A DNA stretch of 20,000 bases from the NCBI GenBank assembly GCA_964255285.1, contig CAXUUL010000017.1, forward strand, positions 44,508 through 64,507, written 5' to 3'. The notes beneath the pieces are model-generated. The model was not told where the DNA came from. It made no database searches and was given only the letters and a program-made list of their open reading frames with translations. Below, piece after piece: positions 621-19,784 of this stretch; the stretch's first letter is position 1; every line of letters starts with the position of its first letter. This stretch comes from Ionaspis alba. Taxonomy: Eukaryota. The position numbers were made by a program, and so were the translations under genes.

Positions 621-830
621 CTCATGTTCTTCAGTTTGACTAGTCTGTCAACTTCGACATGATTATTCCTGTGAANNNNNNNNNNNNNNNNNNNNNNNNN
701 NNNNNNNNNNNNNNNNNNNNNNNNNNNNNNNNNNNNNNNNNNNNNNNNNNNNNNNNNNNNNNNNNNNNNNNNNNNCTCATGTTCTTCAGTTTGACTAGTC
801 TGTCAACTTCGACATGATTATTCCTGTGAA
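621..830. repeat. 55-bp direct repeat (621-675 = 776-830) flanking a 100-N scaffold gap (676-775); assembly overlap artefact
   Basis: Identical 55-mer CTCATGTTCTTCAG...TTCCTGTGAA lies immediately either side of the N run. Confidence 0.9.
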
Positions 831-1452: not shown

Positions 1453-4117
1453 TCAATCGAGGAGATTATTGCTCGCCTTCAACAATATACTGGATATTTT
1501 CTTCACCTGCTCCTGCGCCAGCTTCCAATCATCAGCATCCAGAGCATCTCGGATGCCTGGGAAATACGCTTCGTCGTAACCCGACCAAGCCTGCGGGGCA
1601 AATATTACATGCTTGAATTGCTCACGACCAGGAAGCTGGTACAAATTAGTCTCAATGCTCGGGCAACACAAATGAGAATAGAGTAGTACTCACACCGCCA
1701 CCAATGTCAAGCAAATCGGTCTCAAAGTTCGCCATCTTGGTGTTGTGAGCCATACGCTCAAGTGCCATGACTCGGCTCTCGAAGCCTCCCATCCCATACA
1801 CAATCGAGTCCCACTCGGAATCCCAATCGTGAAACGTGCGCGCGTTCCGGACGAAAGTGTCCGCGGCGTCATGAAGAGACTTCAGGTCAAGCCCAGATTC
1901 TCCGCCTTTACGGGACGCGGCTTTCTTCGCGACGTATTTCTCCAGATCGTCGACATAAACCTTGATGGCTGCAGCATAAGCTTCCAAGTCGAATGGCAGT
2001 AGAGGCCGATCGGCCAATTCCAGAATAAGCAGAGCCATGACCTGACCCATGAGTTTATGATATTGGAAATTGGGGTCGCCAAATTTGCTCATCCAGTCGA
2101 AGTTGTCGTAGCAGCTATGATACGGGAACTGCTTGCCTTTGAAGAACATGTCGATCGACGACATCCCAACTATATCCTGAAAGGCAACGTAATCACTTCC
2201 CGCGCCGAGGCCTTTGAGCTTTCGATTCTTCTCATTCCAGATGGCCCGTAACGTCTTGTTAGCGACAGGGTCAGCAGTACGGTCGAGGACGTGAAACAAT
2301 GCTTTTTGGAGTATGGGAGAGGCCGCTGCGGTGAAGTCGTCGCCTTGAACGGCTACATCTACATTGACGTAAGCAAACCCATCACGCCGGAGATCTTCCA
2401 TGCGAGCTTCAACATGCTCGGTAGAACCGATGAGGTTGTACTCTTCTCCGTCCCAAGAAGCAAATTCGATGCTTCGAAGCGGCCTCCAGCCTCTGGCTGT
2501 GAGCTCGCCGAATACTCGAACAACCTCGAGTAGGACAGCTGTGCCACTACCAGGGTCAACGGCTCCAAAGCACCAGGCATCACGATGGTTCCCAACAACG
2601 ATCGATTTCTCAGACTGCTCAGCACCAGTGATCTTGCCGACCACGTTGTAGATCGGCTGTCGCGCTTCTTCGTCTTGCTCGTTTTTCAGCTGAACGACTG
2701 GTGATTTTTGATCGCCAGACCACCATTCAACATCTGGCACACCGCCAACCCAGTCCTTCACATCCTTCAGGTCTTCGCCATGGCCTTTGAGTGCTTGAAG
2801 CAGCCTCTGCACATCTCTCCAAGAAAGAGGTATGCTCGGAATGTTGTTCAGACCAGGATTGTTGTCTTTGGAGATCCGCTTTTGCTCAGCCGGTAAAGAA
2901 GCGAATCCAGGGGATAGGACGTCCCCAACGATCCAACTCATCAGACTAACAGCCCCACGCTGTACGCCGTCTGCGGGTCGGTACCGTCCATCAGGAAACG
3001 GCTTCCCCTTGACAAAGCCATCCTCGTTTGGATCGCTGTAAATAATGCACCCAGAAGCTCCAGCTAATTCAGCGGCCTTGACTTTGAGGGCACGGTCGCC
3101 TTGGCTCCCGTAGTATCGTACCAAAGCGATCGCTCCCGTCAAGTCAATTCCTTTGTCTTGCAACATCTTGAAGTCTTCGCGAGATCCGTAATTGGCGTAG
3201 ATTAGAGGGCCAGTGACAGTCCCAGATCTTGAATGACCATGAAACACCAGTGTCTGCTCACGAGATGGGCCTACATACGCACTCTCCTCCTCGATTTTTG
3301 CTTCCCAAGCCATCTTAGGTGGATCGATGATTGCTACCCTTCGGCCTCCCTTTTTTGGATAATTGAGGTAAACATCGAATCTTTCCAATCCGACATTCTC
3401 CAATCTAGCCCCTTTGAACGCCGATTCCACCCACTTAGCCAATACATAGCTCCCCTCCGTTCCCGCGATATGATCAAACATTGTTAAATGCTCCAGATTT
3501 TGCCGGATGAGCGTCTCGTCGATATGGTCCTGTGCAAACATCTTGACAGACTCTGGCTCGTATGTGTGACCACTCCCACCTCTGGATCGAAACCTAAACA
3601 CATCGGATAAAAATACAACATATGCTAGTGAGAGAACGAAGAGGAGTGCGAAAAAGCGTCCGGCCAGTATCCATCCTGGTTGCAGCAGATGAGGAAGGCT
3701 TGGAAGCTTTGACCGAATGTTGTCCAAGGAAGGCAACCACCGTCGAAACGGCAAATTCAGCGACGAGAGACCGCTTCTCAAGCTAATGATCCGTTTTGAG
3801 AACGTAGTTCCTCCTCTTTGATTCCCCTCCTCCCCAGGCTCAAGTATATCCATCTCCAATATCTCATGCCTGAGGCCGTCCACAGAGTCTCTGGCAGAGC
3901 CATCCGCAGAGTCTTGACTGGATCTGACCGATTCGACCGTTGGAGGAACATAGCTATTGTTACGGCCCAAAAGCGTTTGCCGTTCGGCATCGTGACTGAC
4001 TTCTGTCGGGCCGAGAAACGACTGTGAGGAGGGAGGTCGAGAGGATGTGGCTTCGTCATAAGTTGGTATAGGGAGCGACTCGAGCCGTTCATACTTATTG
4101 GGCTTCTCGTCCGCCAT
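1453..4117 (-). CDS. Transferrin-receptor-like M28 glutamate carboxypeptidase (Tre1/Tre2/Vps70 family), type II membrane protein, ~868 aa; exons 4117-1694, 1635-1453
   Basis: Long ORF with one TM segment (GWILAGRFFALLFVLSLAYVVFLSDVF) and a PA domain (GPLIYANYGSREDF...GCIIYSDP). GCPII-type metal/catalytic motifs are present: GNHRDAW, DPGSG, WDGEEY, NVDV, YHSCYD. A 58-nt phase-0 intron 1693-1636 (GTGAGT...CTAAT...CAG) joins the TfR-dimerisation-domain exon LPGREQFKHVIFAPQAWSGY. Confidence 0.93.
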
Positions 4118-4170
4118 TGCGGCGGCGAGGAATGGCTTCGAACACCAGGACGGGACAGATGGCCAGAGTA

Positions 4171-4179
4171 CTATTGCAT
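4171..4179 (-). promoter_or_regulatory. Minimal uORF (Met-Gln-stop) in strong Kozak context upstream of the Tre/Vps70-like gene
   Basis: The minus strand reads GCCACC-ATG-CAA-TAG, ending 53 nt before the main ATG at 4117. Confidence 0.35.
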
Positions 4180-4696
4180 GGTGGCTAATTGATAGTAGTG
4201 ACTATAGAGGAGTCTCATCGGGAAAGCAACTCTCCTTAGGACCTGCTGCAGTCGGCCCTGATTGATCAAGCAGTTGCTGTCGAACAAATGGATTAAGGCT
4301 GACGCACCCTAAAGCAGTCCTGAGTCTTAGAAATGCAATAGGCGAGCTCGGCGACAGATCGTGTTTGATGACTGCTTGGCAGTAGACTCGCATACGTAGT
4401 ACGCGGACAGTTCCCCTAAAGCCAACAATAGCCTACCACCTAACCTGGCGAATAGGTGGCTCATATTAGGGGAATTAGCGGAATTTGTCCGGGTACTATG
4501 TACAACCCTCGACTTGGATTTGCAAGAACAACTTCACCTTCTGTACTGTTTGGATGTTGAGATTTGCGACGATTGTTGCATCTACTGAATCCATGTGCTG
4601 CGCGTCAAATCTACACTTCATAGTCTTCATAAGCTCTAAGGAAGCACATTTTAGAGCTCGATTGTGATCTTTGATTCGAAAGCGTCTCTACAGCAT

Positions 4697-5692
4697 TTAT
4701 GGACTCGAATCAATTCTTTTGACGAAGCGAACAACTCTTGATATGAAATCCTTCAACACATCCGCTGTCGCTCCATTCAAGTTATGATCCGCCCCATCGA
4801 GCACTCCACTGTCCTCGTCCACTACTCCTCCCCCTTCCTTGATGATAGTCGTCCATCGCTTCACCAATGACTCTTTGTCCACACTCTCCGGCACATATTG
4901 ATCCTTTTCCCCATAGAGAATCTGGATAGGTGTCTTCGTAGCCCCGATTTTCCCAAACGTACTTCTCAGCCTCTCATCACTGAAGTCGGAACTGAAGTAG
5001 TCGTCCTCGCCGGTGTGGTTCGGCGACGGGCTTGCCAGACTGAGCCAGCGGATAGCAGAGATAGGGGCAGGTAAGATGTCAGAGGTGACCGTCATGGGTA
5101 GTACGTCGGCCCCTCGTCCCTCGCAAATGTAGGTCTCAGCAAGCTTCACGCTTGCATCATAAGCTTCAGAGGAAAGAAACATGGCTATTGCCTCCCTATC
5201 ACTGACACATGCTTGCATTATTGCCCCGGAAAGCCCTGGGCGAGAGGAGTCGTCTGTCTTCTCCGGTGACAAGAGGTAGTGTATAGTATCCTGGCAACCA
5301 GTCGAGTGACCCATCAAGATGACTTTGCCCTGAGGTCGAATTCTGTGAATGTAATTTATACATTGAGCGATCTCATCAACATCTTTGTCGAGGCTCGAAG
5401 TGCCCCAGCCGATGTACGACGAGGAGAGAATTGGTTGGATGAGACGCCATCGGGGTGGTAGTGCAGCTGCAAGTGGAATTGCGTAAGGGACTGTGAGTAA
5501 TCCATCGAAGAGGCCTCCGACAAACACAGCGGTATGGAGAGCGGAGGTACTTGGGGCAGGTAGAGCGAACTCGAAAGCTACCAGTTTCGAGGTCTACGCA
5601 AGAATCAGCAGGTCTCTGCTGCTATCAAATGGAAGTGACAAGCTCACGTAATGATGCAGCGATCCAGGGTACGAAGCCGGCTTATATGCCAT
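4697..5692 (-). CDS. DUF1749 (UPF0613) alpha/beta hydrolase, same family as the fusarinine C esterase SidJ, ~313 aa; exons 5692-5648, 5593-4697
   Basis: Spliced N-terminus MAYKPASYPGSLHHY|TSKLVAFEF...FVGGLFDGLLTVPY via a 54-nt intron 5647-5594 (GTGAGC...CTGAT...TAG). Family motifs: nucleophile elbow GHSTGCQD, SSYIGWGTSSLDKDV, DDYFSSD, YGEKDQYVP, GADH. Confidence 0.88.
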
Positions 5693-7704: not shown

Positions 7705-7834
7705 ACGCGCGCGCTTCTGTTGAAGAGGTCCATCATGAATCTAATAGCCCCGCGTAAAGGCCGGTTGCAAACTCGTTTTACGCGCTGACCATTCAAATCT
7801 TGATTTCAATGCAACAATCGTAAAATCCCACGTG
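7705..7834 (+). promoter_or_regulatory. Cluster of MCB/SCB-like CGCG elements and an E-box upstream of DUO1
   Basis: ACGCG at 7705; inverted pair CGCGTAAA (7751-7758) / TTTACGCG (7777-7784); CACGTG at 7829-7834. All lie within 170 bp of the ATG. Confidence 0.4.
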
Positions 7835-7870
7835 TCACTTCTCGCGCTCCATGCCAACCTGGCCGCCAAA

Positions 7871-8554
7871 ATGGCCCAGAAACCCCCATCCTCTCCATCC
7901 AATCCCGACGACCTCTTTGCCTCGCCCGACACCAATCCACAGGCCTCCAGAACCTCGACATCCAAACCTCCAGTGACTCCAGCGCCAGCGAATAACTTTC
8001 CAAATCCATCCTCTCCTGCGTCCCGCGAATCTGCTCTTCGTGCCGAACTCAGTCACCTCCGCAATATCAATTCCACACTCTCCACTGTTATCTCTTCCCT
8101 CGCTGGCGCTCAATCGCACATGCAAACAATCAACAACACCGTGAACACCTCCACTACATTGTTAGAAACATGGACGCGAATACTGTCACAGACAGAGCAC
8201 AATCAGCGACTAATACTGAATCCGAATTGGCAAGGGGCAGGGCAGGATGTTCGAGATGCGGAGCTGGAGGTTGAGAGGAGAGAGGATGAGGAAAAGAAGA
8301 AAGAGGATCAAAGGAGGAAAGAAGATAGGCGGAGGGCCGAGGAAGCCGAGCGAAAAACCGAGGGGCAGGCTGCTGGGGCTTCGACTGTGGGCCGAGGCAC
8401 AGGGACCGGAAGACGAAGGACAGGACGAGGCGTCGGTGTTGGCGGCACTGGGAGAGGGATATCGAGAGGCGGTGGGACTGCACCAGGGAGAGGTGGAACT
8501 GGGATCGGGCGGGGTACGGGAGTCGGGAGAGGAAGAGGACGAGGCGTTTCATGA
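7871..8554 (+). CDS. DUO1: DASH/Dam1 kinetochore complex subunit Duo1, 227 aa, single exon
   Basis: ATG at 7871 in good context (GCCAAAATGG). DASH_Duo1 signature RESALRAELSHLRNIN...LLETWTRILSQTEHNQRLILNPNWQGAGQD, followed by a charged helix and an RG-rich tail. Confidence 0.92.
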   Translation: MAQKPPSSPSNPDDLFASPDTNPQASRTSTSKPPVTPAPANNFPNPSSPASRESALRAELSHLRNINSTLSTVISSLAGAQSHMQTINNTVNTSTTLLETWTRILSQTEHNQRLILNPNWQGAGQDVRDAELEVERREDEEKKKEDQRRKEDRRRAEEAERKTEGQAAGASTVGRGTGTGRRRTGRGVGVGGTGRGISRGGGTAPGRGGTGIGRGTGVGRGRGRGVS

Positions 8555-8956: not shown

Positions 8957-11900
8957 TCAAAAGCCGGGTGAGGTGATACCTCCACCAGGTGCTTGGAAGC
9001 CCCGAGGTCCTCCATAGGCAAGGCCGGCGCTAGAAGGCATAGGGCTGCCTATGTCTCCTGATACCAAGACGCCCCTAGGTCCCATCGACGAGTTGTGGTC
9101 GGGTTCGTACTTAACACAAATGCCCAGTCCAGCTTTCTCTGTGATATCGAACGATCCACCTCCGTTCTGTGAATTGCCCTCGGTCTCGCAGATAGTGAGA
9201 AGCTCTCTCAACTGAATCGGAGCCTCGTGGGCAGGCTTGAGTAGATCGATTTGACGCAAAAGAGTGTCGATATTATGGTATCCATAACTGTCACCGCTCT
9301 TGACCGGGCTGCTGTTGGTAAGCTGTTTGCATGCCTGGCACATCAACAGTCGAATTGTCCCTGATCGACGATTGGGAGCACCAATGATTCCGAATGCGTT
9401 GTTATTTGACCATCCGGAACCTTGCAATCATTAGCTCATCCTCTAAGAAACACGCTTTAGGTTGAGTATTTACTAGGTGCAGTCGACCAGGTTGGCTGGT
9501 TCGACAGCGAGGGAGTACCAAATGGCATCGATGGCGCGCCCCAAGACATCCCACCTTGATTTCCGCGAGGAAAGTTTTCCATTTTCGCGGCTTAAGATGA
9601 AAATCAGCACACTAATGCACAGGGCAGTGAGTAGACTTACATCCAATGGGTTCGGGGAACATTGGCGACGCGCCATAGCCAAGTCTACCTGATCTAGGTC
9701 CACCGGGTGCCATATTGGTTCGTCTGTCGTCGATGTTGGAGTTGAGCGGGTCATCAGTGTCGTCAAGTAGAGCACTACTTCCAAGGTGATTGCTAAGGTC
9801 GTCGATATCAGAATGCTTTGCTGGGTAGTCGTCTTGATGGGGTATACTGGAGGGTCTCTGAATTGGAGCAGGGCGAGCAATAGGCTGCGTTTGTGTCGTA
9901 CCCGGCGCTTCAAAGCTATGCTTGTCGAAGGATGCAGACGTGTTTCTAGAATGAGAATGCGAAGGCATCGTGCCATGAACAGGCCCATGTTGGGGGCCAC
10001 TATTACCGACGGCTCCGGAGCCGATTGGAGATTGAGCAGAGGCAAAATCCATAGGAGAGCCTCTTCCGGGAGGAGTGTGTCTGATCGCATTGATACCGGG
10101 AGGAAAGGCCAGTCCGCTTGGAGCGGCGTAATTCCTGTATTGCGGTCCACTGAAAGATGGCTGTTGGGGATACAATGGGGGCTCGTGACCTACAGGCATT
10201 CGTGACATCATTCCGGGCATGTTCTGCGGATAGCTGATAGGAAAAGCATTGCCTGTTATTGCAGGAGAGGTCAAGCTTCCTGGTAGCGATGCAAGACTTA
10301 CACCTGGCGGAGGGCCAATGGGCAGATTCGGCGCTGTGGTCGGTAGTCCTTGACCAACCTTGACTGGCATAGGTGCATTGCTTTGCTGCTGAGATATGGA
10401 GCTTGTTGGGGAGGTCGCCGAGCTTCCAGAAGGTATGGGAGCAGACTTTGGAGAAGACTGATGTGAATCTTGGAAGGACGTTTGCCGTGGCCGGACAGGT
10501 GTGGGAGCTTTGGGAATAGCAGGAGTTGCGACCTGTAAATGAGGAGAAGCATGGTTGCTGGAGGTAGGTTGGAGGCCAGGAGGATGTGATACGGTCGTGG
10601 AAGGCTTGCTGCGTGGAAGTGTGGGTACTGAGACTGGGACTGGCTGGGTAGCTTGTTTCGAAGCCTGCTCTTCTTTTTTGGCACGATCTTTTGCCTCCTT
10701 CTCAGCCTTCGCCTTCAATTCCCTATCTCGGCGCTCAGCCGCTTCACGCTCCTTTCTATCCTTGGCATCTCGTTCCTTCGCTTCCCGCTCCTCCCGTTCC
10801 CTTTTCTTGACCTCCTCCCGTTTCTTTCTCTCCTTCTCCTTCTGCTCCCGCTGCCTTCTCTCTAACTCTGCTTGCTGCTCCCGAGCCTCCTGTATCTTCT
10901 TCTGTTTCTCGGCTTCTTTCCGTTGCCGCTCTTCGTCTTGTGCCTTCTTCTCTGCCTCTCGCTTCTTCCGCTGCTCTTCCTTCTTCTGCCGTTGTTCTTC
11001 GAGCTTCTGTTCCTCGATGATCTTTGCAGCAGCTTCTTCCTGGGCCTTTTCAGCCTCACGTTTGGCTTTTTCTTCGTCCTTGGCTTGTTTCTGTTTCTGT
11101 TTCTTCTCTTTCTTCTTCTGCGCTTCTTTTGCCTTCTTGGCCTCTCGTTGGGCATCCAAACGAGATTCGTCAGCCAGTTCCTCGAGAAGCTTTTCCTGAC
11201 GTTCTCTCGCTACCTTCTCTCGATAAGCTGTGAGGACACGCTGTTCAAACATTCGGGCAGCAAATATTTGAAACATCCGACGTCCTTCCTCCATCCGCTG
11301 CTCCTCAGTCATGGTCTCCTAATCTCCGTGAGCATTTATTCAGGGTTCATTCTAGGAGATCGGAGTACGCACCATCTCATCCTCATCATAGTCTTCATCC
11401 TCCTGACTATCATATTCGTCATCCTCGTCATCGTCGTAGTCCTCTTCGTCCGAAGGCGGGTTTGCATCATGATTCTGAGCGGATTGATGTCTTCCTGATG
11501 ATGCATATTGTGCTTCTTCTTCCCGTTGCATACGACGTTCAGCCAGCTGTTCCATCATCTCAATGAACTTCTTCCCATCGTTCTTGAGAAGATCGTCAGC
11601 CACCGTAAGTATGCCACCTAAACAGTGTCAGCAATTCTATAAGCATACCTGGAAACTCCATGGACTACCTTGCACGGTCAGACTATTCCCGAAATTGAAG
11701 AAATCAGCTGCAGGACCCCTCGCTTGCTCTAACGGCTCGTCTTCGCTGTAGTCACCGTCTTCCTCATCTTCATCTTCTTCGCTGTAATCATCTTCCTCTT
11801 CAGCTTCATCGCCATGCTCCACGATCTCCTGTATCCGACCTCTCGCTGGACGTTGAGGATTTATTGGAGGACCTAGGTGACTAGGAGCTAATCTCGGAAT

Positions 11901-12841
11901 TGAACGAGCGTAAGTTCCAGGCGAAGGCATGATGGGGGTCCCGTCTTCTAAGCTATATTGTTGATGATTCGCATATTGTTCCAGTTCTTCATAGTAAGCA
12001 TCATACAACACCTCAAGCTCTTCCTCGATTGCTGTTCGCTTGCGGCCGCATACGGTACAACTGCAGGAATGTTTCTGTTGCTCCTTCATCTTCTTTAGAA
12101 CCATATCCTTTTCCACTTTGACCAAAGACCGCCTTTCCGTCTCTTCCAGGGATAACCAGAACTCTTTGATTCTTTCCCGCTCCTCCGCCGTGGAGGTATT
12201 CCAGATCCGATCTTTCGATACCCTGTGTGCGGCGCGCACCGCCGCAGCGGACGTTGGAGCAGTCGACTGTAAAGGTGGTGGCGGAGGGGGAGGAGGTGGA
12301 TGGAAGGCAGATGACGTTGGCAATTGCCCATGGCGGTGGTTGTATGCAGAGTGGTATTCATGTTGAGAATTTGACCTGGATTTGGTCTTCTTTTTCCTCT
12401 TTGACTTCCCATTTTGACCACCATTTGGAGCATGATCGGCACTTGGAGAATCAGTGAATAGACCGAGCAACAAAGGGACAAGGTTGCTCACTACCGGCTA
12501 TTTTCGTCGCTGTAATACTGGTCGTCTCCACCCCTGGTTTCGTAGAGGTCGTCCGCAACAGAAGGACCATACTCTAAGCCGTTCAAAGGTATCTGATCCA
12601 GAGACTCTGAACGGTTGTGGTTTGGATGAGGATGTGAGAGGTGACCATTCGGCGCAGGTGTTGGCCTCGAGGTTTGTTCTGCAGCGAGCCGGGCTGCCTG
12701 TTTTTCTCGTCTCTTCTGCTTCTTGCGATTGACCGCGTTTCCTTCAGAATTATTCGCGCCAGCAGTAGGTTCCGTCGGTGCACCCTTGTTATCCTGGTTC
12801 TGAGGAGCCGAAGGGGCAGAACGTTGAGTCGTTGGAGGCAT
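8957..12841 (-). CDS. NST1: Stress response protein Nst1, ~1208 aa; exons 12841-12492, 12441-11669, 11617-11373, 11318-9641, 9590-9474, 9420-8957
   Basis: Nst1 motifs [30 protein letters not shown]...[75 protein letters not shown] and [35 protein letters not shown], then a long K/E/R coiled coil. Five 50-54 nt introns give consistent phases (total 3627 nt). Confidence 0.93.
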
Positions 12842-16036: not shown

Positions 16037-16246
16037 GCTTCTCTTTCATAACTCAGAAGATCAAGAAACATGCCAATGAAGTTCTGTCGTTNNNNNNNNN
16101 NNNNNNNNNNNNNNNNNNNNNNNNNNNNNNNNNNNNNNNNNNNNNNNNNNNNNNNNNNNNNNNNNNNNNNNNNNNNNNNNNNNNNNNNNNNGCTTCTCTT
16201 TCATAACTCAGAAGATCAAGAAACATGCCAATGAAGTTCTGTCGTT
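16037..16246. repeat. 55-bp direct repeat (16037-16091 = 16192-16246) flanking a 100-N scaffold gap (16092-16191); assembly overlap artefact
   Basis: Identical 55-mer GCTTCTCTTTCATAAC...TTCTGTCGTT lies either side of the N run, the same length as at the first gap. Confidence 0.9.
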
Positions 16247-16251
16247 TTCAT

Positions 16252-17700
16252 CTAAAGCTTGAAATCCACATTGTTCCTTTCCCAGCCCACATCGGTCCCT
16301 CCGGTGCCTGCAACCTTCGTTGCTAGTTCCATCTTTAGGCTCTTCGCCCGATCCGTACAGAGCTCAAATACTGTGGACAGATTGAATAGCAAAGTGTGAA
16401 AGGAGTAGCCTTTGGAGACCAGCGAATCCAGCGTTAAGCGTGCTGCGTCAAGTTTGCCCGTATACAGAAGACATACTGCCAAATTCTGAGTAACTAAAGG
16501 ATCCAGCATATGGGTCTTGGTTTCCTTCGAAGCAGCAAACTGTGACGCAGCACTTTCATAGTCCCCTTCAGCCATGCTGAGTAATGGTATCAGAGCCTCC
16601 GCATACTTCTCCTGATTGGAACCCTCCTTAGCCACGATGTATCTCCTTGCCTTTTCTAAGTTTCCAATCCGCAGCCACAGCAGACCTAGTCTCCCTCGCA
16701 TCATCTCTCCTTCTTCTCCTTCAGCCGCTAGAGTTTCTAAGTGTCGGCACGCTCCTACCAAGTCTCCCATCTCGACAAGCGCATTGGCAACCCTGGTGCC
16801 CAGATCTCTCAGTCGATCTTTCCATATCGATCTTTCTTCTCCCTTTGTTCTTCCAACCTCGCCTCTTGCATCACGCGCCAGTTCATAGTATGCCATCACA
16901 GCTCTTGCATCTTGCTTCTCTGCCAATAGCAGCCGGACGGCCAATACGCGCAACTCCCAAGGCACCAGATGTGTGCCCGTCTCCGGGTGACGATAAAAGG
17001 TTGAGTTGAGGTCTTCAAGACATTTCGCTTCTTGTGCCGCAAGTGGAGTGGCGTTGATGAGGGTCAAACAGGCGAGTCGAGTGTAGAGGAGGGAGAAAAT
17101 TTCAGACTCGGTGGGAGGCGCTGGCTGACGCGTCAGGAGAGCAGCAGCTTTAGTGGCGGCGAGGCGGAATTGACCTGAGCCAAGGAGTGTGGAAAGAGGA
17201 GCTGTGATATCGGGGATCTGTGGAGCGGTACGGAAAGGCAGAGGGACATCCTAATTCATGAAAATGAGGATTGGGACTGAAACGCAGAGAAAGAACGTAC
17301 GTATTGAGTGAGGGGATGATAGATTTCTGGGCGAAGGAGGTAGCTGTAGTCTCTGGGTGGAGGTGAGAGCACCGCCAAGCTGGCTGTGGGTGATGACTGC
17401 TTTGTGGCATCCGGTGATATAGGTAACGGTGACTTCGGCCTATGTTTGACTGGAGCTGCAGCGTCATCTACTGCTAGTGGACTGCGGACATCAATTGGTG
17501 TGCTTGTGGACCGTGGAAGTGAGATGCGGCTTACTCGTCTGCTTCTAGCGGTCCTGTCGTTATCTTCCTTGTGAGAGCAGCTGTGTCAGTCATCAGCCAC
17601 TGAGATATAGGTCTATATGTGATGCCATCGTCGAACCTCGATTATGCGATACATGTCTACTGTCTCTCTTGGAGCCGACTTGGCTCTCTTGCTGCTCCAT
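16252..17700 (-). CDS. TRAPPC12: TPR-repeat protein, TRAPPC12/TTC15-like, ~429 aa; exons 17700-17637, 17580-17535, 17481-17301, 17250-16252
   Basis: Three 50-56 nt introns give a continuous frame with TGPLEADDP, DYSYLLRPEIYHPL, IFSLLYTRLACLTL, HLVPWELRVLAVRL and QNLAVCLLYTGKL...LLFNLSTVFELCTD...DFKL. These are the motifs I recall from fungal TTC15/TRAPPC12-like proteins. Confidence 0.78.
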
Positions 17701-17938: not shown

Positions 17939-18038
17939 NNNNNNNNNNNNNNNNNNNNNNNNNNNNNNNNNNNNNNNNNNNNNNNNNNNNNNNNNNNNNN
18001 NNNNNNNNNNNNNNNNNNNNNNNNNNNNNNNNNNNNNN
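17939..18038. other. 100-N scaffold gap without flanking overlap, inside the divergent TRAPPC12-like / rum1-like promoter
   Basis: N run; the flanks are not duplicated. Confidence 0.95.
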
Positions 18039-18339: not shown

Positions 18340-19784
18340 ATGGCAACCACCCCACCTCTCCGCTCTTCAGCGCGAACACCTCCGGCCCCTTTGTACGGCG
18401 CCAAATACGATTCGTACGAACCCTACACCATTCGTAAGAGTACGCGATTCTCAGCACAACGCGCCGCGAGAACACCCTCTCCAAATGGCCATCGCCTTCA
18501 TCCACAATCCAAAAGCTCTTCAAGATCAGGAAAATCAGCTACAGTAGTGCCGACAACAAATCCTTATTCACCACCGTCTTCGGCCCAGGCCTCACCTCAG
18601 AAGAAGACCCGCAAGACCGCATATCTAGGGTTGGAAAACAAGCCAATTAGCACCACCCAAGACCGTGGCCACAAAAAACCTGAAATCCCGCAGGCCGCCA
18701 ACTCCACTCTCAAATCAAACCAAACCAACCTCGTACCAAACATGCTTCCAACACCAGTGAAGACGCCTCGCAAGAAGCAGGCACAAACGACTGTCACCTC
18801 AACCGCTCGAATCCTCTTTCCAAATCGTCCTGATAATGTCGATGAAGCGATGCCAACACCCCACAAGCGAAAGAGCAAGAGACATGTGGGATTCTCTCTG
18901 GGCAGCTTCTGTGAAGATGACGACGCAAGTTCGGATGGAAAGATTGAGATATACACAGATTCGAAAGACAAGCTCCCGGAGATAGATGAGGCTGAGGACA
19001 ACCCTTTCTATGAGAAGCCCTCCGGACAACCCCCTTCAACGAATCGAAGCACCAAGCGAAGAAAGGTTAGCAACAAGATCGACCACAGCGAGGAGGTTCA
19101 GGAGGCTCTTGCCCGTAACGAAGGCATGGTCTACGTATTGTAAGCATTGCTAGTAACTGTTTGCCTCGACGACGTCACGAGCTAACCATCCGTAGTCGTG
19201 GTAAAAGGATCTTTCGCAAATTCGCAGTCTCGCCTGACGGGTCAGGGTCGTCACCCATCGGTCTTGACACTGGTGCTTCTACTTCTATTCACATCGAAGC
19301 CGACGAGTCTCCTCATTCAAAGCACTTCACTCGCTCGTCCATCAAGCCACGTCTTCTCTTTCCAAGCACCAAACAATCTCGGAACGACGAGCCCGACATG
19401 GAGAACACCGATGAGGAAGCTGTCACAGACATCGAAGATCGCCATCCGGCACACGGCGGGATCACAGAAGTCGCGCCAGATACCGAAGAAGAGCCTTTGG
19501 TCACTCCGGTCAAGACCACGTTCACACCCTCCACTCCTCCTACAACAGGCCATGCAACTAGAGCTTCAACTAAGAAAGCGGCTCTCGATAGCTCTCCTCT
19601 TGCGCCCGAGCCAGTTGAAATGCTGCCGCACGTCTTGCCCAAGGCTAGGAAGCCAAGTCCGTTCGACGCTTGGAGGCGTACCAAAGGTCGATCTGAGCCT
19701 GCTGGCAAGGGCAAGAAAAGAGCAGCTGAGGTCACTGACGGAGACGTGGAAGGCAGTAAGAGAATTAGAGGTCATGTCAATTGA
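18340..19784 (+). CDS. rum1: Rum1/Sic1-like cyclin-dependent kinase inhibitor (putative), ~462 aa, disordered, S/T-P rich; exons 18340-19139, 19196-19784
   Basis: A 56-nt phase-2 intron 19140-19195 (GTAAGC...GCTAAC...TAG) yields EGMVYVF|RGKRIFRKF. The ordered motifs LPTPVKTPRKK, EDNPF, GMVYVFRGKRI and IKPRLLF parallel S. pombe Rum1 as recalled (PPTPAKTPKK, EHNPF, GLYYVFRGKRI, FKPKLLF). The gene model is solid; the orthology is inferred. Confidence 0.75.

What the first reader, a model, noticed from the sequence alone, without database searches (positions are those of the whole stretch)
18340..19784. Hidden Rum1/Sic1-type CDK inhibitor in a filamentous ascomycete
Seen: after removing the 19140-19195 intron, the protein has in order MATTPP, LPTPVKTPRKK (~18745-18777), EDNPFY (18994-19011), EGMVYVFRGKRIFRKF (19120-19223) and IKPRLLF (19341-19361). 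The background is low-complexity with about 17 S/T-P sites, 5 of them full CDK consensus (SPQK, TPVK x2, TPRK, TPHK). Knowledge (recalled): S. pombe Rum1 has the same ordered motifs (PPTPAKTPKK with the T58/T62 phosphodegron, EHNPF, GLYYVFRGKRI, FKPKLLF), and Sic1 ends NPF...KPKALF. Inference: this is the Pezizomycotina G1 CDK inhibitor, with an SCF(Cdc4/Pop)-type diphosphodegron and a cyclin-docking RxL-like motif. It is about twice Rum1's length. As far as I know such proteins are usually annotated as hypothetical and are little studied in hyphal fungi.
Basis: partly seen in the sequence, partly recalled or inferred. Interest (0 to 1): 0.8.

Follow-up and report, generated by a model that had tools for sequence, protein, structure and literature searches.

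The report
Likely CDK inhibitor of filamentous ascomycetes
A two-exon gene in a lichen-forming fungus encodes a disordered protein rich in phosphorylation sites; it is conserved but unnamed across filamentous ascomycetes and is most likely their counterpart of the yeast cell-cycle brakes Rum1 and Sic1.

Summary
ATG 18340, a 56-nt intron at 19140-19195 and a stop at 19782-19784 give a 462-aa protein. It has the five motifs in the stated order, 17 S/T-P sites and 5 full CDK sites. The gene is real and old. A profile of 13 lichen-fungus orthologues finds 938 sequence clusters, spanning Lecanoro-, Eurotio-, Dothideo-, Leotio-, Sordario- and Geoglossomycetes. PTPxKTP, NPF and FRG are invariant in 39 of 39 aligned proteins. 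The protein is predicted disordered except for a short helix and a beta-hairpin on YVFRGKKIY. It matches no Pfam family or PDB chain. Of 120 listed relatives, 117 are named "hypothetical/uncharacterized".

The Rum1/Sic1 reading is the best explanation, but it is only partly tested. No tool could bring a Rum1 or Sic1 sequence into the session, so the domain match rests on recall. Papers read here independently give Rum1's two CDK sites as T58 and T62, the same TPxxTP spacing, and put a Sic1 priming site at T5.

Verdict: a probable new member of a known kind, unannotated family-wide. Confidence 0.7, interest 0.5.

The parts
18340..19139 (+). Exon 1 (codons 1-266 plus 2 nt of codon 267)
   Evidence: Translation is 67% identical to the best database relative and 56% to Xylographa full-length proteins.
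19140..19195 (+). Intron, 56 nt, phase 2, GTAAGC...GCTAAC...TAG, splitting the V-F of YVFRGK
   Evidence: Removing it restores the motif YVFRGK found in annotated orthologues and in intronless metagenome ORFs. Unspliced read-through ends in ...MVYVL-stop, as do the prokaryote-style gene calls of relatives.
19196..19784 (+). Exon 2 (last nt of codon 267, codons 268-462, TGA at 19782-19784)
   Evidence: Colinear with orthologues to the C-terminus.
18340..18390 (+). N-terminal TP cluster (MATTPP...TPPAP; T4, T13), candidate Cks1-priming sites
   Evidence: T4-P and T13-P are each kept in 11 of 13 orthologues. P5, P14 and P17 are invariant in 39 sequences. Sic1's N-terminal priming site is T5.
18745..18777 (+). 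LPTPVKTPRKK: paired TP sites T138/T142, candidate Cdc4/Pop1-type diphosphodegron followed by a basic run
   Evidence: P-T-P-x-x-T-P is invariant in 39 of 39 sequences. The spacing equals that of Rum1 T58/T62.
18805..18822 (+).
   Evidence: A, R, L, F and P are invariant in 13 sequences. R and L are at least 90% conserved in 39. R[VIL]LF occurs in 130 of 150 representatives.
18943..19011 (+). IEIYTDSKD..PE.D..EDNPFY block with the invariant NPF
   Evidence: D199, P205, N213, P214, F215 invariant in 39 sequences; NPF in 144 of 150.
19054..19065 (+). KRRK basic run (NLS-like)
   Evidence: K/R-rich in all of A1.
19120..19223 (+). EGMVYVFRGKRIFRKF core (includes the intron): predicted beta-hairpin, candidate CDK-binding inhibitory element
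   Evidence: F-R-G is invariant and Y, V, K, K, R, F are at least 90% conserved in 39 sequences. AlphaFold2 places strands 256-259 and 262-265 of the Xylographa orthologue on this motif, after helix 243-250.
19341..19364 (+). IKPRLLFP: second RxL-F cyclin-docking-type motif
   Evidence: K and L are invariant and P, R, F at least 90% conserved in 39 sequences.
19410..19436 (+). DEEAVTDIE acidic block
   Evidence: E323, E324, A325, T327, E330 invariant in A1.
19500..19568 (+). C-terminal TP/SP cluster (VTPVK..TPSTPP..TR)
   Evidence: T370-P and T380-P are kept in 13 of 13 orthologues.
19656..19721 (+). SPFDAWRRTK and KGKKR: conserved C-terminal motif and basic run
   Evidence: (F407, W410, K414, K425, R426 at least 90% conserved in 39 sequences).

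Best explanation
The gene encodes the filamentous-ascomycete (Pezizomycotina) counterpart of the fission-yeast Rum1 / budding-yeast Sic1 class of stoichiometric inhibitors of B-cyclin-CDK1.

Shown here: it is an intrinsically disordered 462-aa protein whose only strongly conserved parts are short linear motifs in a fixed order. These are N-terminal TP sites; an invariant PTPxKTP pair of CDK sites followed by basic residues; two RxL-F motifs (AR[IV]LFP and KPRLLFP); an invariant NPF; and an invariant FRG inside a predicted beta-hairpin (YVFRGK+I.RKF).

Inferred mechanism:
- The RxL-F motifs dock on the hydrophobic patch of a B-type cyclin.
- The helix, the hairpin and NPF contact CDK1 and block it, holding nuclei in G1.
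- Rising G1-CDK activity phosphorylates the TP sites, N-terminal sites priming through Cks1.
- The doubly phosphorylated PTPxKTP is then read by the SCF F-box protein Cdc4/Pop1, and the inhibitor is destroyed.

The protein is twice Rum1's length because it carries extra modules conserved in Pezizomycotina: the N-terminal TPPTP.HG...D, the I.I.TDSKD block, and the C-terminal TP cluster and SPFD.W.
For: - The gene model and motifs are exact.
- The family is large and under constraint: 938 clusters at E<=1e-3 and 320 at E<=1e-30, and 789 proteins in a second database.
- It spans six classes of Pezizomycotina.
- In 39 aligned proteins with mean column identity 31%, the invariant columns fall on PTPxxTP, NPF, FRG and K..L of KPRLLF.
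- All four motifs are in the same order in 111 of 111 proteins that have them.
- The protein is disordered: mean pLDDT 45.3, with 332 of 446 residues below 50. The only regular elements near the core are helix 243-250 and a hairpin at 256-265 on YVFRGKKIY. CKIs are described as disordered proteins sharing only a short inhibitory domain.
- S/T-P sites are enriched (17 against 10.4 expected) and mostly conserved.
- Papers read here: Rum1's main CDK sites are T58 and T62, the same TPxxTP spacing. Sic1's priming site is T5 and it uses RXL docking. Rum1 and Sic1 inhibit B-cyclin CDK and are destroyed after CDK phosphorylation.
- Recalled, not from a call: Rum1 carries PPTPAKTPKK, EHNPF, GLYYVFRGKRI and FKPKLLF in this order, and Sic1 ends with NPF...KPKALF. 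My recollection of Rum1's first 86 residues reproduces all four coordinates printed (IDEIPE 39-44, T58, T62, LERCMEE 80-86), which speaks for the reliability of the recall.
Against: - No Rum1 or Sic1 sequence was compared with this protein by any tool; the domain-level match is recollection.
- The profile found no PDB chain and no Pfam family, including the Cip/Kip CDI domain.
- Conserved CDK sites, RxL motifs and a phosphodegron are also what a CDK substrate looks like, so they do not prove inhibition.
- The RxL-F motif lies C-terminal to the hairpin, the reverse of p27 as described.
- One relative is named 'base excision DNA repair protein' by its depositor, though without Pfam support.
Confidence: 0.7

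Rival explanations
1. A conserved CDK substrate rather than an inhibitor. This would be a nuclear regulator, for example of replication, mitosis or repair, that docks on cyclins through its RxL-F motifs, is phosphorylated at many sites and is degraded through PTPxKTP, without blocking the kinase.
For: Every feature tested here fits substrates as well as inhibitors: enriched and conserved S/T-P sites, RxL-type motifs, the TPxxTP pair, disorder and basic runs. No binding or inhibition data exist. One depositor's name is 'base excision DNA repair protein'.
Against: The most conserved element is not a phosphosite. It is the hairpin YVFRGK+I.RKF with invariant FRG, which by recollection is nearly identical in Rum1. 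The five motifs are colinear with those recalled for Rum1. The repair name has no domain support.
Confidence: 0.2
2. A scaffold or adaptor unrelated to CDK inhibition whose invariant NPF binds EH-domain proteins of the endocytic machinery, with the phosphosites serving other proline-directed kinases (MAPK).
For: NPF is invariant in 39 of 39 sequences. From general knowledge, NPF is the classical EH-domain ligand. S/T-P sites are also MAPK sites.
Against: The NLS-like basic runs, the two RxL-F motifs and the TPxxTP pair point to a nuclear cyclin-CDK context. By recollection, NPF is also present in Rum1 and Sic1.
Confidence: 0.05
3. Not a real gene: a chance ORF pair in low-complexity DNA.
For: The composition is low-complexity (P, S, T, K, A and R make up 55% of residues). 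Long ORFs also occur in other frames of the region.
Against: There are 938 related clusters and colinear full-length orthologues at 42-56% identity. The intron position is conserved, and intronless homologues exist.
Confidence: 0.01

Closest known systems
Schizosaccharomyces pombe Rum1 (p25rum1), inhibitor of Cdc2-Cdc13 and Cdc2-Cig2
   Same: Both are disordered. Both have two CDK threonines four residues apart: Rum1 T58/T62, and T138/T142 here. Both act, or are proposed to act, on B-cyclin CDK and to be destroyed after CDK phosphorylation. By recollection only, Rum1 has the same ordered motifs: N-terminal STPP, PTPAKTP+K, NPF, YVFRGKRI and KP+LLF.
   Different: This protein is about twice as long (462 aa against the recalled 230 aa). 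It has extra conserved modules: a second RxL-F (AR[IV]LFP), I.I.TDSKD, a C-terminal TP cluster and SPFD.W. It has a phase-2 intron inside the core motif. Rum1's functional B56-binding LxxIxE motif at 39-44 has no conserved counterpart: the window has LPEIDE, but only P-E-x-D is conserved. Homology was not tested with a tool.
Saccharomyces cerevisiae Sic1 (and Candida albicans Sol1, recalled)
   Same: Both are disordered CKIs with multisite CDK phosphorylation, an N-terminal TP priming site (T5), RXL docking motifs and SCF-dependent destruction. The inhibitory segment is short, the last 70 of 284 residues. By recollection, that segment contains NPF and ends with KPKALF.
   Different: In Sic1 the inhibitory domain is C-terminal. 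Here it is central (aa 219-322 of 462) and is followed by 140 further residues with conserved motifs. By recollection, Sic1 lacks the YVFRGK core. No alignment could be made here.
Metazoan Cip/Kip (p21, p27, p57) and plant KRP inhibitors (Pfam CDI, PF02234)
   Same: Both are disordered inhibitors built from an RxL-F cyclin-docking motif plus a helix and beta-hairpin that fold on cyclin-CDK. Both are controlled by phosphorylation and SCF.
   Different: No Pfam CDI match at E<=10 in 2 exon translations, 13 orthologues and 5 further relatives. The order is reversed: here the hairpin comes before the RxL-F.

Membership tests
Rum1/Sic1-type fungal CDK inhibitors | Intrinsically disordered protein without a globular domain | tested here: met
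   AlphaFold2 with a 13-sequence alignment gives mean pLDDT 45.3 and pTM 0.14, with 332 of 446 residues below 50. No Pfam domain was found. Sic1 is described as disordered throughout.
Rum1/Sic1-type fungal CDK inhibitors | Multiple conserved CDK consensus (S/T-P) sites | tested here: met
   17 S/T-P sites, 5 of them full consensus. This exceeds shuffles (p 0.015 and 0.025), and 12 of the 17 sites are kept in at least 9 of 13 orthologues.
Rum1/Sic1-type fungal CDK inhibitors | Pair of threonine-proline CDK sites four residues apart that governs stability (Rum1 T58/T62) | tested here: met
   Sequence pattern only. T138-P-V-K-T142-P lies in a P-T-P-x-x-T-P stretch invariant in 39 of 39 sequences. 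Rum1's sites are T58 and T62 (passages read). The effect on stability was not tested.
Rum1/Sic1-type fungal CDK inhibitors | N-terminal TP priming site within the first few residues (Sic1 T2/T5) | tested here: met
   Sequence pattern only. MATTPP has T4-P5, kept in 11 of 13 orthologues. Sic1 T5 is the Cks1-dependent priming site.
Rum1/Sic1-type fungal CDK inhibitors | Inhibitory domain alignable with Rum1's central region or Sic1 residues 215-284 | not testable with these tools
   No Rum1 or Sic1 sequence could be obtained. The search listings stop at 120 or 150 rows and are filled by closer relatives. PDB holds no matching chain. The papers print the sequences only in figures or in supplements that are not held. 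The match of NPF, YVFRGKRI and KP+LLF is recalled.
Rum1/Sic1-type fungal CDK inhibitors | Reciprocal profile search recovers Rum1/Sic1 | tested here: inconclusive
   The forward profile search found 938 clusters, but only the best 150 (all E<=2e-50) are shown and none of them carries a name. Whether Rum1 or Sic1 are among the other 788 is unknown. The reverse search was impossible.
Rum1/Sic1-type fungal CDK inhibitors | Binds and inhibits B-cyclin-Cdk1 stoichiometrically | not testable with these tools
   This needs biochemistry.
Rum1/Sic1-type fungal CDK inhibitors | Phosphorylation-dependent destruction through SCF-Cdc4/Pop1 | not testable with these tools
   Only the motif fit is known: L-P-T-P-x-K-T-P, a hydrophobic residue then TPxxT.
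Cip/Kip/KRP inhibitors | CDI domain (Pfam PF02234) | tested here: not met
   No match at E<=10 in the two exon translations or in the 13 orthologues, and none at E<=1 in 5 further relatives.
Whi5/Nrm1 G1/S transcriptional inhibitors | Whi5/GTB motif family in Pfam | tested here: not met
   No Pfam family of any kind above noise. The only hits were KIF1B (E 0.063) and DUF1199 (E 2.4), each in 1 of 13 orthologues.

The most novel reading that the evidence does not exclude
The family is the so far unrecognised G1 CDK inhibitor of all Pezizomycotina. It is also more than a long Rum1. Its Pezizomycotina-specific conserved modules are a second RxL-F motif, the N-terminal TPPTP.HG...D, I.I.TDSKD, and the C-terminal TP cluster with SPFD.W. 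These would make it a multi-input hub that lets individual nuclei in a multinucleate hypha set their own CDK threshold.
Probability: 0.3. Interest if true: 0.7.

Novelty: new member of a known kind. Interest (0 to 1): 0.5.

Why it matters
Filamentous ascomycetes include the main model moulds, most plant pathogens and the lichen fungi. In the library searched here, no paper describes a Rum1/Sic1-type inhibitor in these fungi. The family has no Pfam model, and 117 of 120 listed relatives are named only "hypothetical/uncharacterized".

If the reading is right, one named gene per genome becomes available for testing how G1 length, quiescence and nuclear-division timing are set in hyphae. Examples are ACLA_038140 in Aspergillus clavatus and its relatives in Aspergillus, Trichoderma, Paracoccidioides and Trichophyton. 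The family also provides a deep alignment for studying how a disordered inhibitor keeps five short motifs while everything between them drifts.

Tried and rejected
**Fetching Rum1 or Sic1 for a direct comparison failed by every route.**
- Listings are capped and filled by closer relatives.
I dropped it, since the expected E-value of such a short match is far above 10.
- The profile found no PDB chain.
- ESM Atlas gave only unnamed clusters at 0.84-0.85, or nothing.
- This scan's earlier findings held nothing relevant.
- No whole genome is held for the window, and the control genomes of the genome search held no cyclin.
- A metagenome scan for an uninterrupted G..YVFRG...F coding pattern gave 17 loci. 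Six were family members (three distinct sequences, two of which have ORFs of 443 aa or more) and 11 were unrelated. None was Rum1-sized.

**Papers.**
- Motif strings as full-text terms found nothing relevant.
- Supplements of PMC5161751, PMC6057490, PMC11750111 and PMC7160111 hold no Rum1 or Sic1 sequence as text. In PMC11750111 files 13 and 14 were not searched.
- PMC1170399 and PMC1134993 are not held.
- 'Rum1' in PMC7773993 appears only in a strain table.

**Other checks.**
- No RNA holder was listed for the region, so the intron rests on sequence signals and homology.
- Complex prediction was not run, for lack of Cdk1 and cyclin sequences.
- The 301 nt between the upstream gap and the ATG contain no MCB, SCB, Swi5/Ace2, forkhead or TATA consensus.
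- A search for fused forms gave only 4 long proteins that look like merged neighbouring gene models.
Full report
**The observation**

The + strand carries an ATG at 18340 and an open frame to 19139. A 56-nt intron follows at 19140-19195, with a GTAAGC donor, a GCTAAC branch site and a TAG acceptor. A second frame then runs to TGA at 19782-19784. Unspliced, these are two separate ORFs, the first ending ...EGMVYVL-stop.

Joining the exons in a script gives 1389 nt and 462 aa with no internal stop. The protein has MATTPP at aa 1, LPTPVKTPRKK at 136, EDNPFY at 219, EGMVYVFRGKRIFRKF at 261 (split by the intron between V266 and F267) and IKPRLLF at 316. It has 17 S/T-P sites, five of them [ST]Px[KR]. 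Every coordinate and count in the finding is right.

Against 20000 shuffles of the same composition, the S/T-P count (17 against a mean of 10.4) and the full-site count (5 against 1.66) are reached in 1.5% and 2.5% of shuffles. This enrichment is real but modest.

**Is it a real, constrained gene?**

The exon 1 translation finds 282 proteins at E<=1e-3 among 735 candidates. The best hit is 67% identical. All 17 of the 120 listed rows that carry a name read 'hypothetical' or 'uncharacterized' and come from lichen-forming Lecanoromycetes (Xylographa, Lambiella, Agyrium, Lecanora, Pleopsidium and others) or Xylona.

The window therefore comes from a lecanoromycete near Xylographaceae, in Baeomycetales, Ostropomycetidae. 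Its own protein is not in the database.

Thirteen full-length orthologues (429-466 aa) align colinearly from MATTPP to the C-terminus and are 42-56% identical to the spliced protein. This confirms the two-exon model.

Only 16 of the 120 stored hits contain the intact core. The other 104 have 47 distinct C-termini, and the 15 that were printed all end in VYVL. These are prokaryote-style gene calls that ran into the same intron, so the intron position is conserved among lichen fungi.

A metagenome scan for an uninterrupted coding pattern of the core found 17 loci. Six are family members (three distinct sequences) that lack the intron and read ...YVFRGKKIF... continuously. Eleven are unrelated.

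**Breadth of the family**

A profile of the 13 orthologues, run against 1.84 billion cluster representatives, finds 938 proteins at E<=1e-3, 771 at E<=1e-10 and 320 at E<=1e-30.

Ten representatives that I looked up belong to Pycnora, Glutinoglossum, Bogoriella, Pyrenula, Erysiphe, Parascedosporium, a Teratosphaeriaceae species, Sporormia, Aureobasidium and Polychaeton. All are 'hypothetical', 'uncharacterized' or 'unnamed'.

A 39-sequence profile finds 789 proteins in the second database. The 120 listed include many Aspergillus species, Trichoderma, Xylariales, Onygenales (Paracoccidioides, Trichophyton, Emmonsia) and Leotiomycetes. Of these, 117 are hypothetical or uncharacterized, 2 are unnamed and 1 is called 'base excision DNA repair protein'. 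That one has no Pfam domain.

**What is conserved**

In the 39-sequence alignment (mean column identity 31%), the invariant columns include P-T-P-x-x-T-P of the degron-like motif, N-P-F, F-R-G of the core, and K and L of KPRLLF. L, K, K of MLPTPAKTPRK, R and L of AR.LF, Y, V, K, K, R, F of the core and P, R, F of KPRLLF are at least 90% conserved.

Among the 150 listed representatives:

| Motif | Present in |
|---|---|
| NPF | 144 of 150 |
| PTP.[KR][ST]P | 132 of 150 |
| R[VIL]LF | 130 of 150 |
| Core | 69 of 150 |
| KP.LLF type | 76 of 150 |

The core and KP.LLF counts are low because many rows are exon fragments or mis-spliced models. Among the 87 proteins newly listed, the core is present in 86 and NPF in 87. 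All four motifs are in the same order in 111 of the 111 proteins that have them.

Of the window's 17 S/T-P sites, 12 are kept in at least 9 of 13 orthologues. The three in the variable linker after the core are kept in none.

**Structure and known families**

AlphaFold2 on the Xylographa orthologue with the 13-sequence alignment gives mean pLDDT 45.3 and pTM 0.14. Near the core, the only regular elements are helix 243-250 and two short strands at 256-259 and 262-265, lying exactly on IYVF-RG-KKIY; one further short helix (408-411) is predicted near the C-terminus.

No Pfam family matches the exon translations, the 13 orthologues or five further relatives. The profile matches no PDB chain at E<=10. 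The ESM Atlas returns only unnamed clusters below 0.9.

The protein is therefore a chain of short linear motifs in disorder, not a fold.

**Working out the function**

The motif grammar is that of a cyclin-CDK partner:
- conserved proline-directed sites;
- two RxL-F motifs of the p21/p27 type (general knowledge);
- a hydrophobic-P-T-P-x-K-T-P stretch that fits the Cdc4/Fbw7 pattern of a TP with a second phospho-acceptor at +4 (for the pattern; the consensus is from general knowledge);
- NLS-like basic runs.

Papers read here give the comparison points:
- CKIs are disordered proteins that share only a short inhibitory domain, which folds on cyclin-CDK.
- Sic1 is 284 aa, and its last 70 residues suffice for inhibition.
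- Sic1 is phosphorylated from an N-terminal priming site, T5, through Cks1 toward di-phosphodegrons read by SCF-Cdc4, and it uses RXL docking.
- Rum1 is Sic1's counterpart in fission yeast. It inhibits Cdc13- and Cig2-CDK and is degraded after CDK phosphorylation.
- Rum1's two main CDK sites are T58 and T62.

The window's T4-P5 and T138-P...T142-P reproduce the Sic1 T5 and Rum1 T58/T62 arrangements.

**The step that could not be taken**

The decisive test is aligning the NPF-to-KPRLLF segment with real Rum1 and Sic1 sequences.
- Listings stop at 120 or 150 rows and are filled by closer relatives and exon fragments.
- The papers print the sequences only in figures or in supplements that are not held.
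- No yeast genome is reachable.

One check on that recollection is possible. Rum1's first 86 residues as I recall them place IDEIPE at 39-44, threonines at 58 and 62, and LERCMEE at 80-86. These are exactly the coordinates printed in PMC7195536. The recalled core motif is beyond residue 86 and remains unverified.

**Verdict**

The family-wide conservation, the disorder, the phosphosite architecture, the docking motifs and the lack of annotation are shown. Homology to Rum1/Sic1 is very likely but recalled. Inhibition, SCF targeting and a G1 role are inferred.

The main rival is a CDK substrate with the same motif grammar. It cannot be excluded without biochemistry.

I file this as a probable new member of a known kind, an expanded Rum1-type inhibitor. 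It has Pezizomycotina-specific conserved modules whose roles are unknown.

**Surroundings**

The rest of the window holds ordinary fungal genes:

| Coordinates | Strand | Pfam match |
|---|---|---|
| 1655-4201 | − | M28 peptidase with PA and TFR-dimer domains |
| 4700-5593 | − | DUF1749 hydrolase |
| 7748-8551 | + | DASH subunit Duo1 |
| 11640-12497 | − | NST1 |
| 16255-17250 | − | TPR protein |

There are three 100-N assembly gaps. One, at 17939-18038, lies 301 nt upstream of the ATG, so the promoter is incomplete.

Noticed in passing
window 676-775, 16092-16191, 17939-18038: Three runs of exactly 100 N (assembly gaps). The last lies 301 nt upstream of the start codon, so the promoter of the gene is truncated in this assembly.
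   Followed up: partly
P0350-P0353: Four proteins of 1219-1266 aa join this family to tubulin-tyrosine-ligase (PF03133) and SurE nucleotidase (PF01975) domains. They come from Scytalidium, Chlorociboria, a Naviculisporaceae species and Rutstroemia. They are most likely merged gene models of neighbouring genes, which hints at conserved synteny. The window ends 216 nt after the stop codon, so this could not be checked here.
   Followed up: no
P0304: One relative (Purpureocillium lavendulum, 489 aa) is named 'base excision DNA repair protein' by its source. It covers 98% of the query and has no Pfam domain, so the name looks unfounded.
   Followed up: partly
window 18973-18990 (aa 212-217): LPEIDE fits the PP2A-B56 LxxIxE pattern, and Rum1 has a functional B56 motif. 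In the family, however, only P-E-x-D is conserved, so the full motif may be chance in this species.
   Followed up: partly
L121/L126, L129/L132/L134, L136 (metagenome loci): Three distinct family members lack the intron inside the YVFRGK codons, and one is a complete 443-aa single-exon ORF. The intron has therefore been lost, or was never gained, in some lineages.
   Followed up: partly
representatives of 400 aa or more: Only 47 of the 76 long representatives contain the intact core motif, although 75 of 76 have NPF. Several deposited gene models probably mis-splice the short phase-2 intron and lose the most conserved element.
   Followed up: no
window 9615-11318 (-) and 11640-12497 (-): A 568-aa open frame without any Pfam match lies directly downstream (on the minus strand) of the NST1-domain ORF. 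It may be the disordered remainder of the same NST1-like gene.
   Followed up: no
window 7748-8551 (+): A DASH complex subunit Duo1 homologue (PF08651, E 1.7e-28) is present in the window.
   Followed up: no
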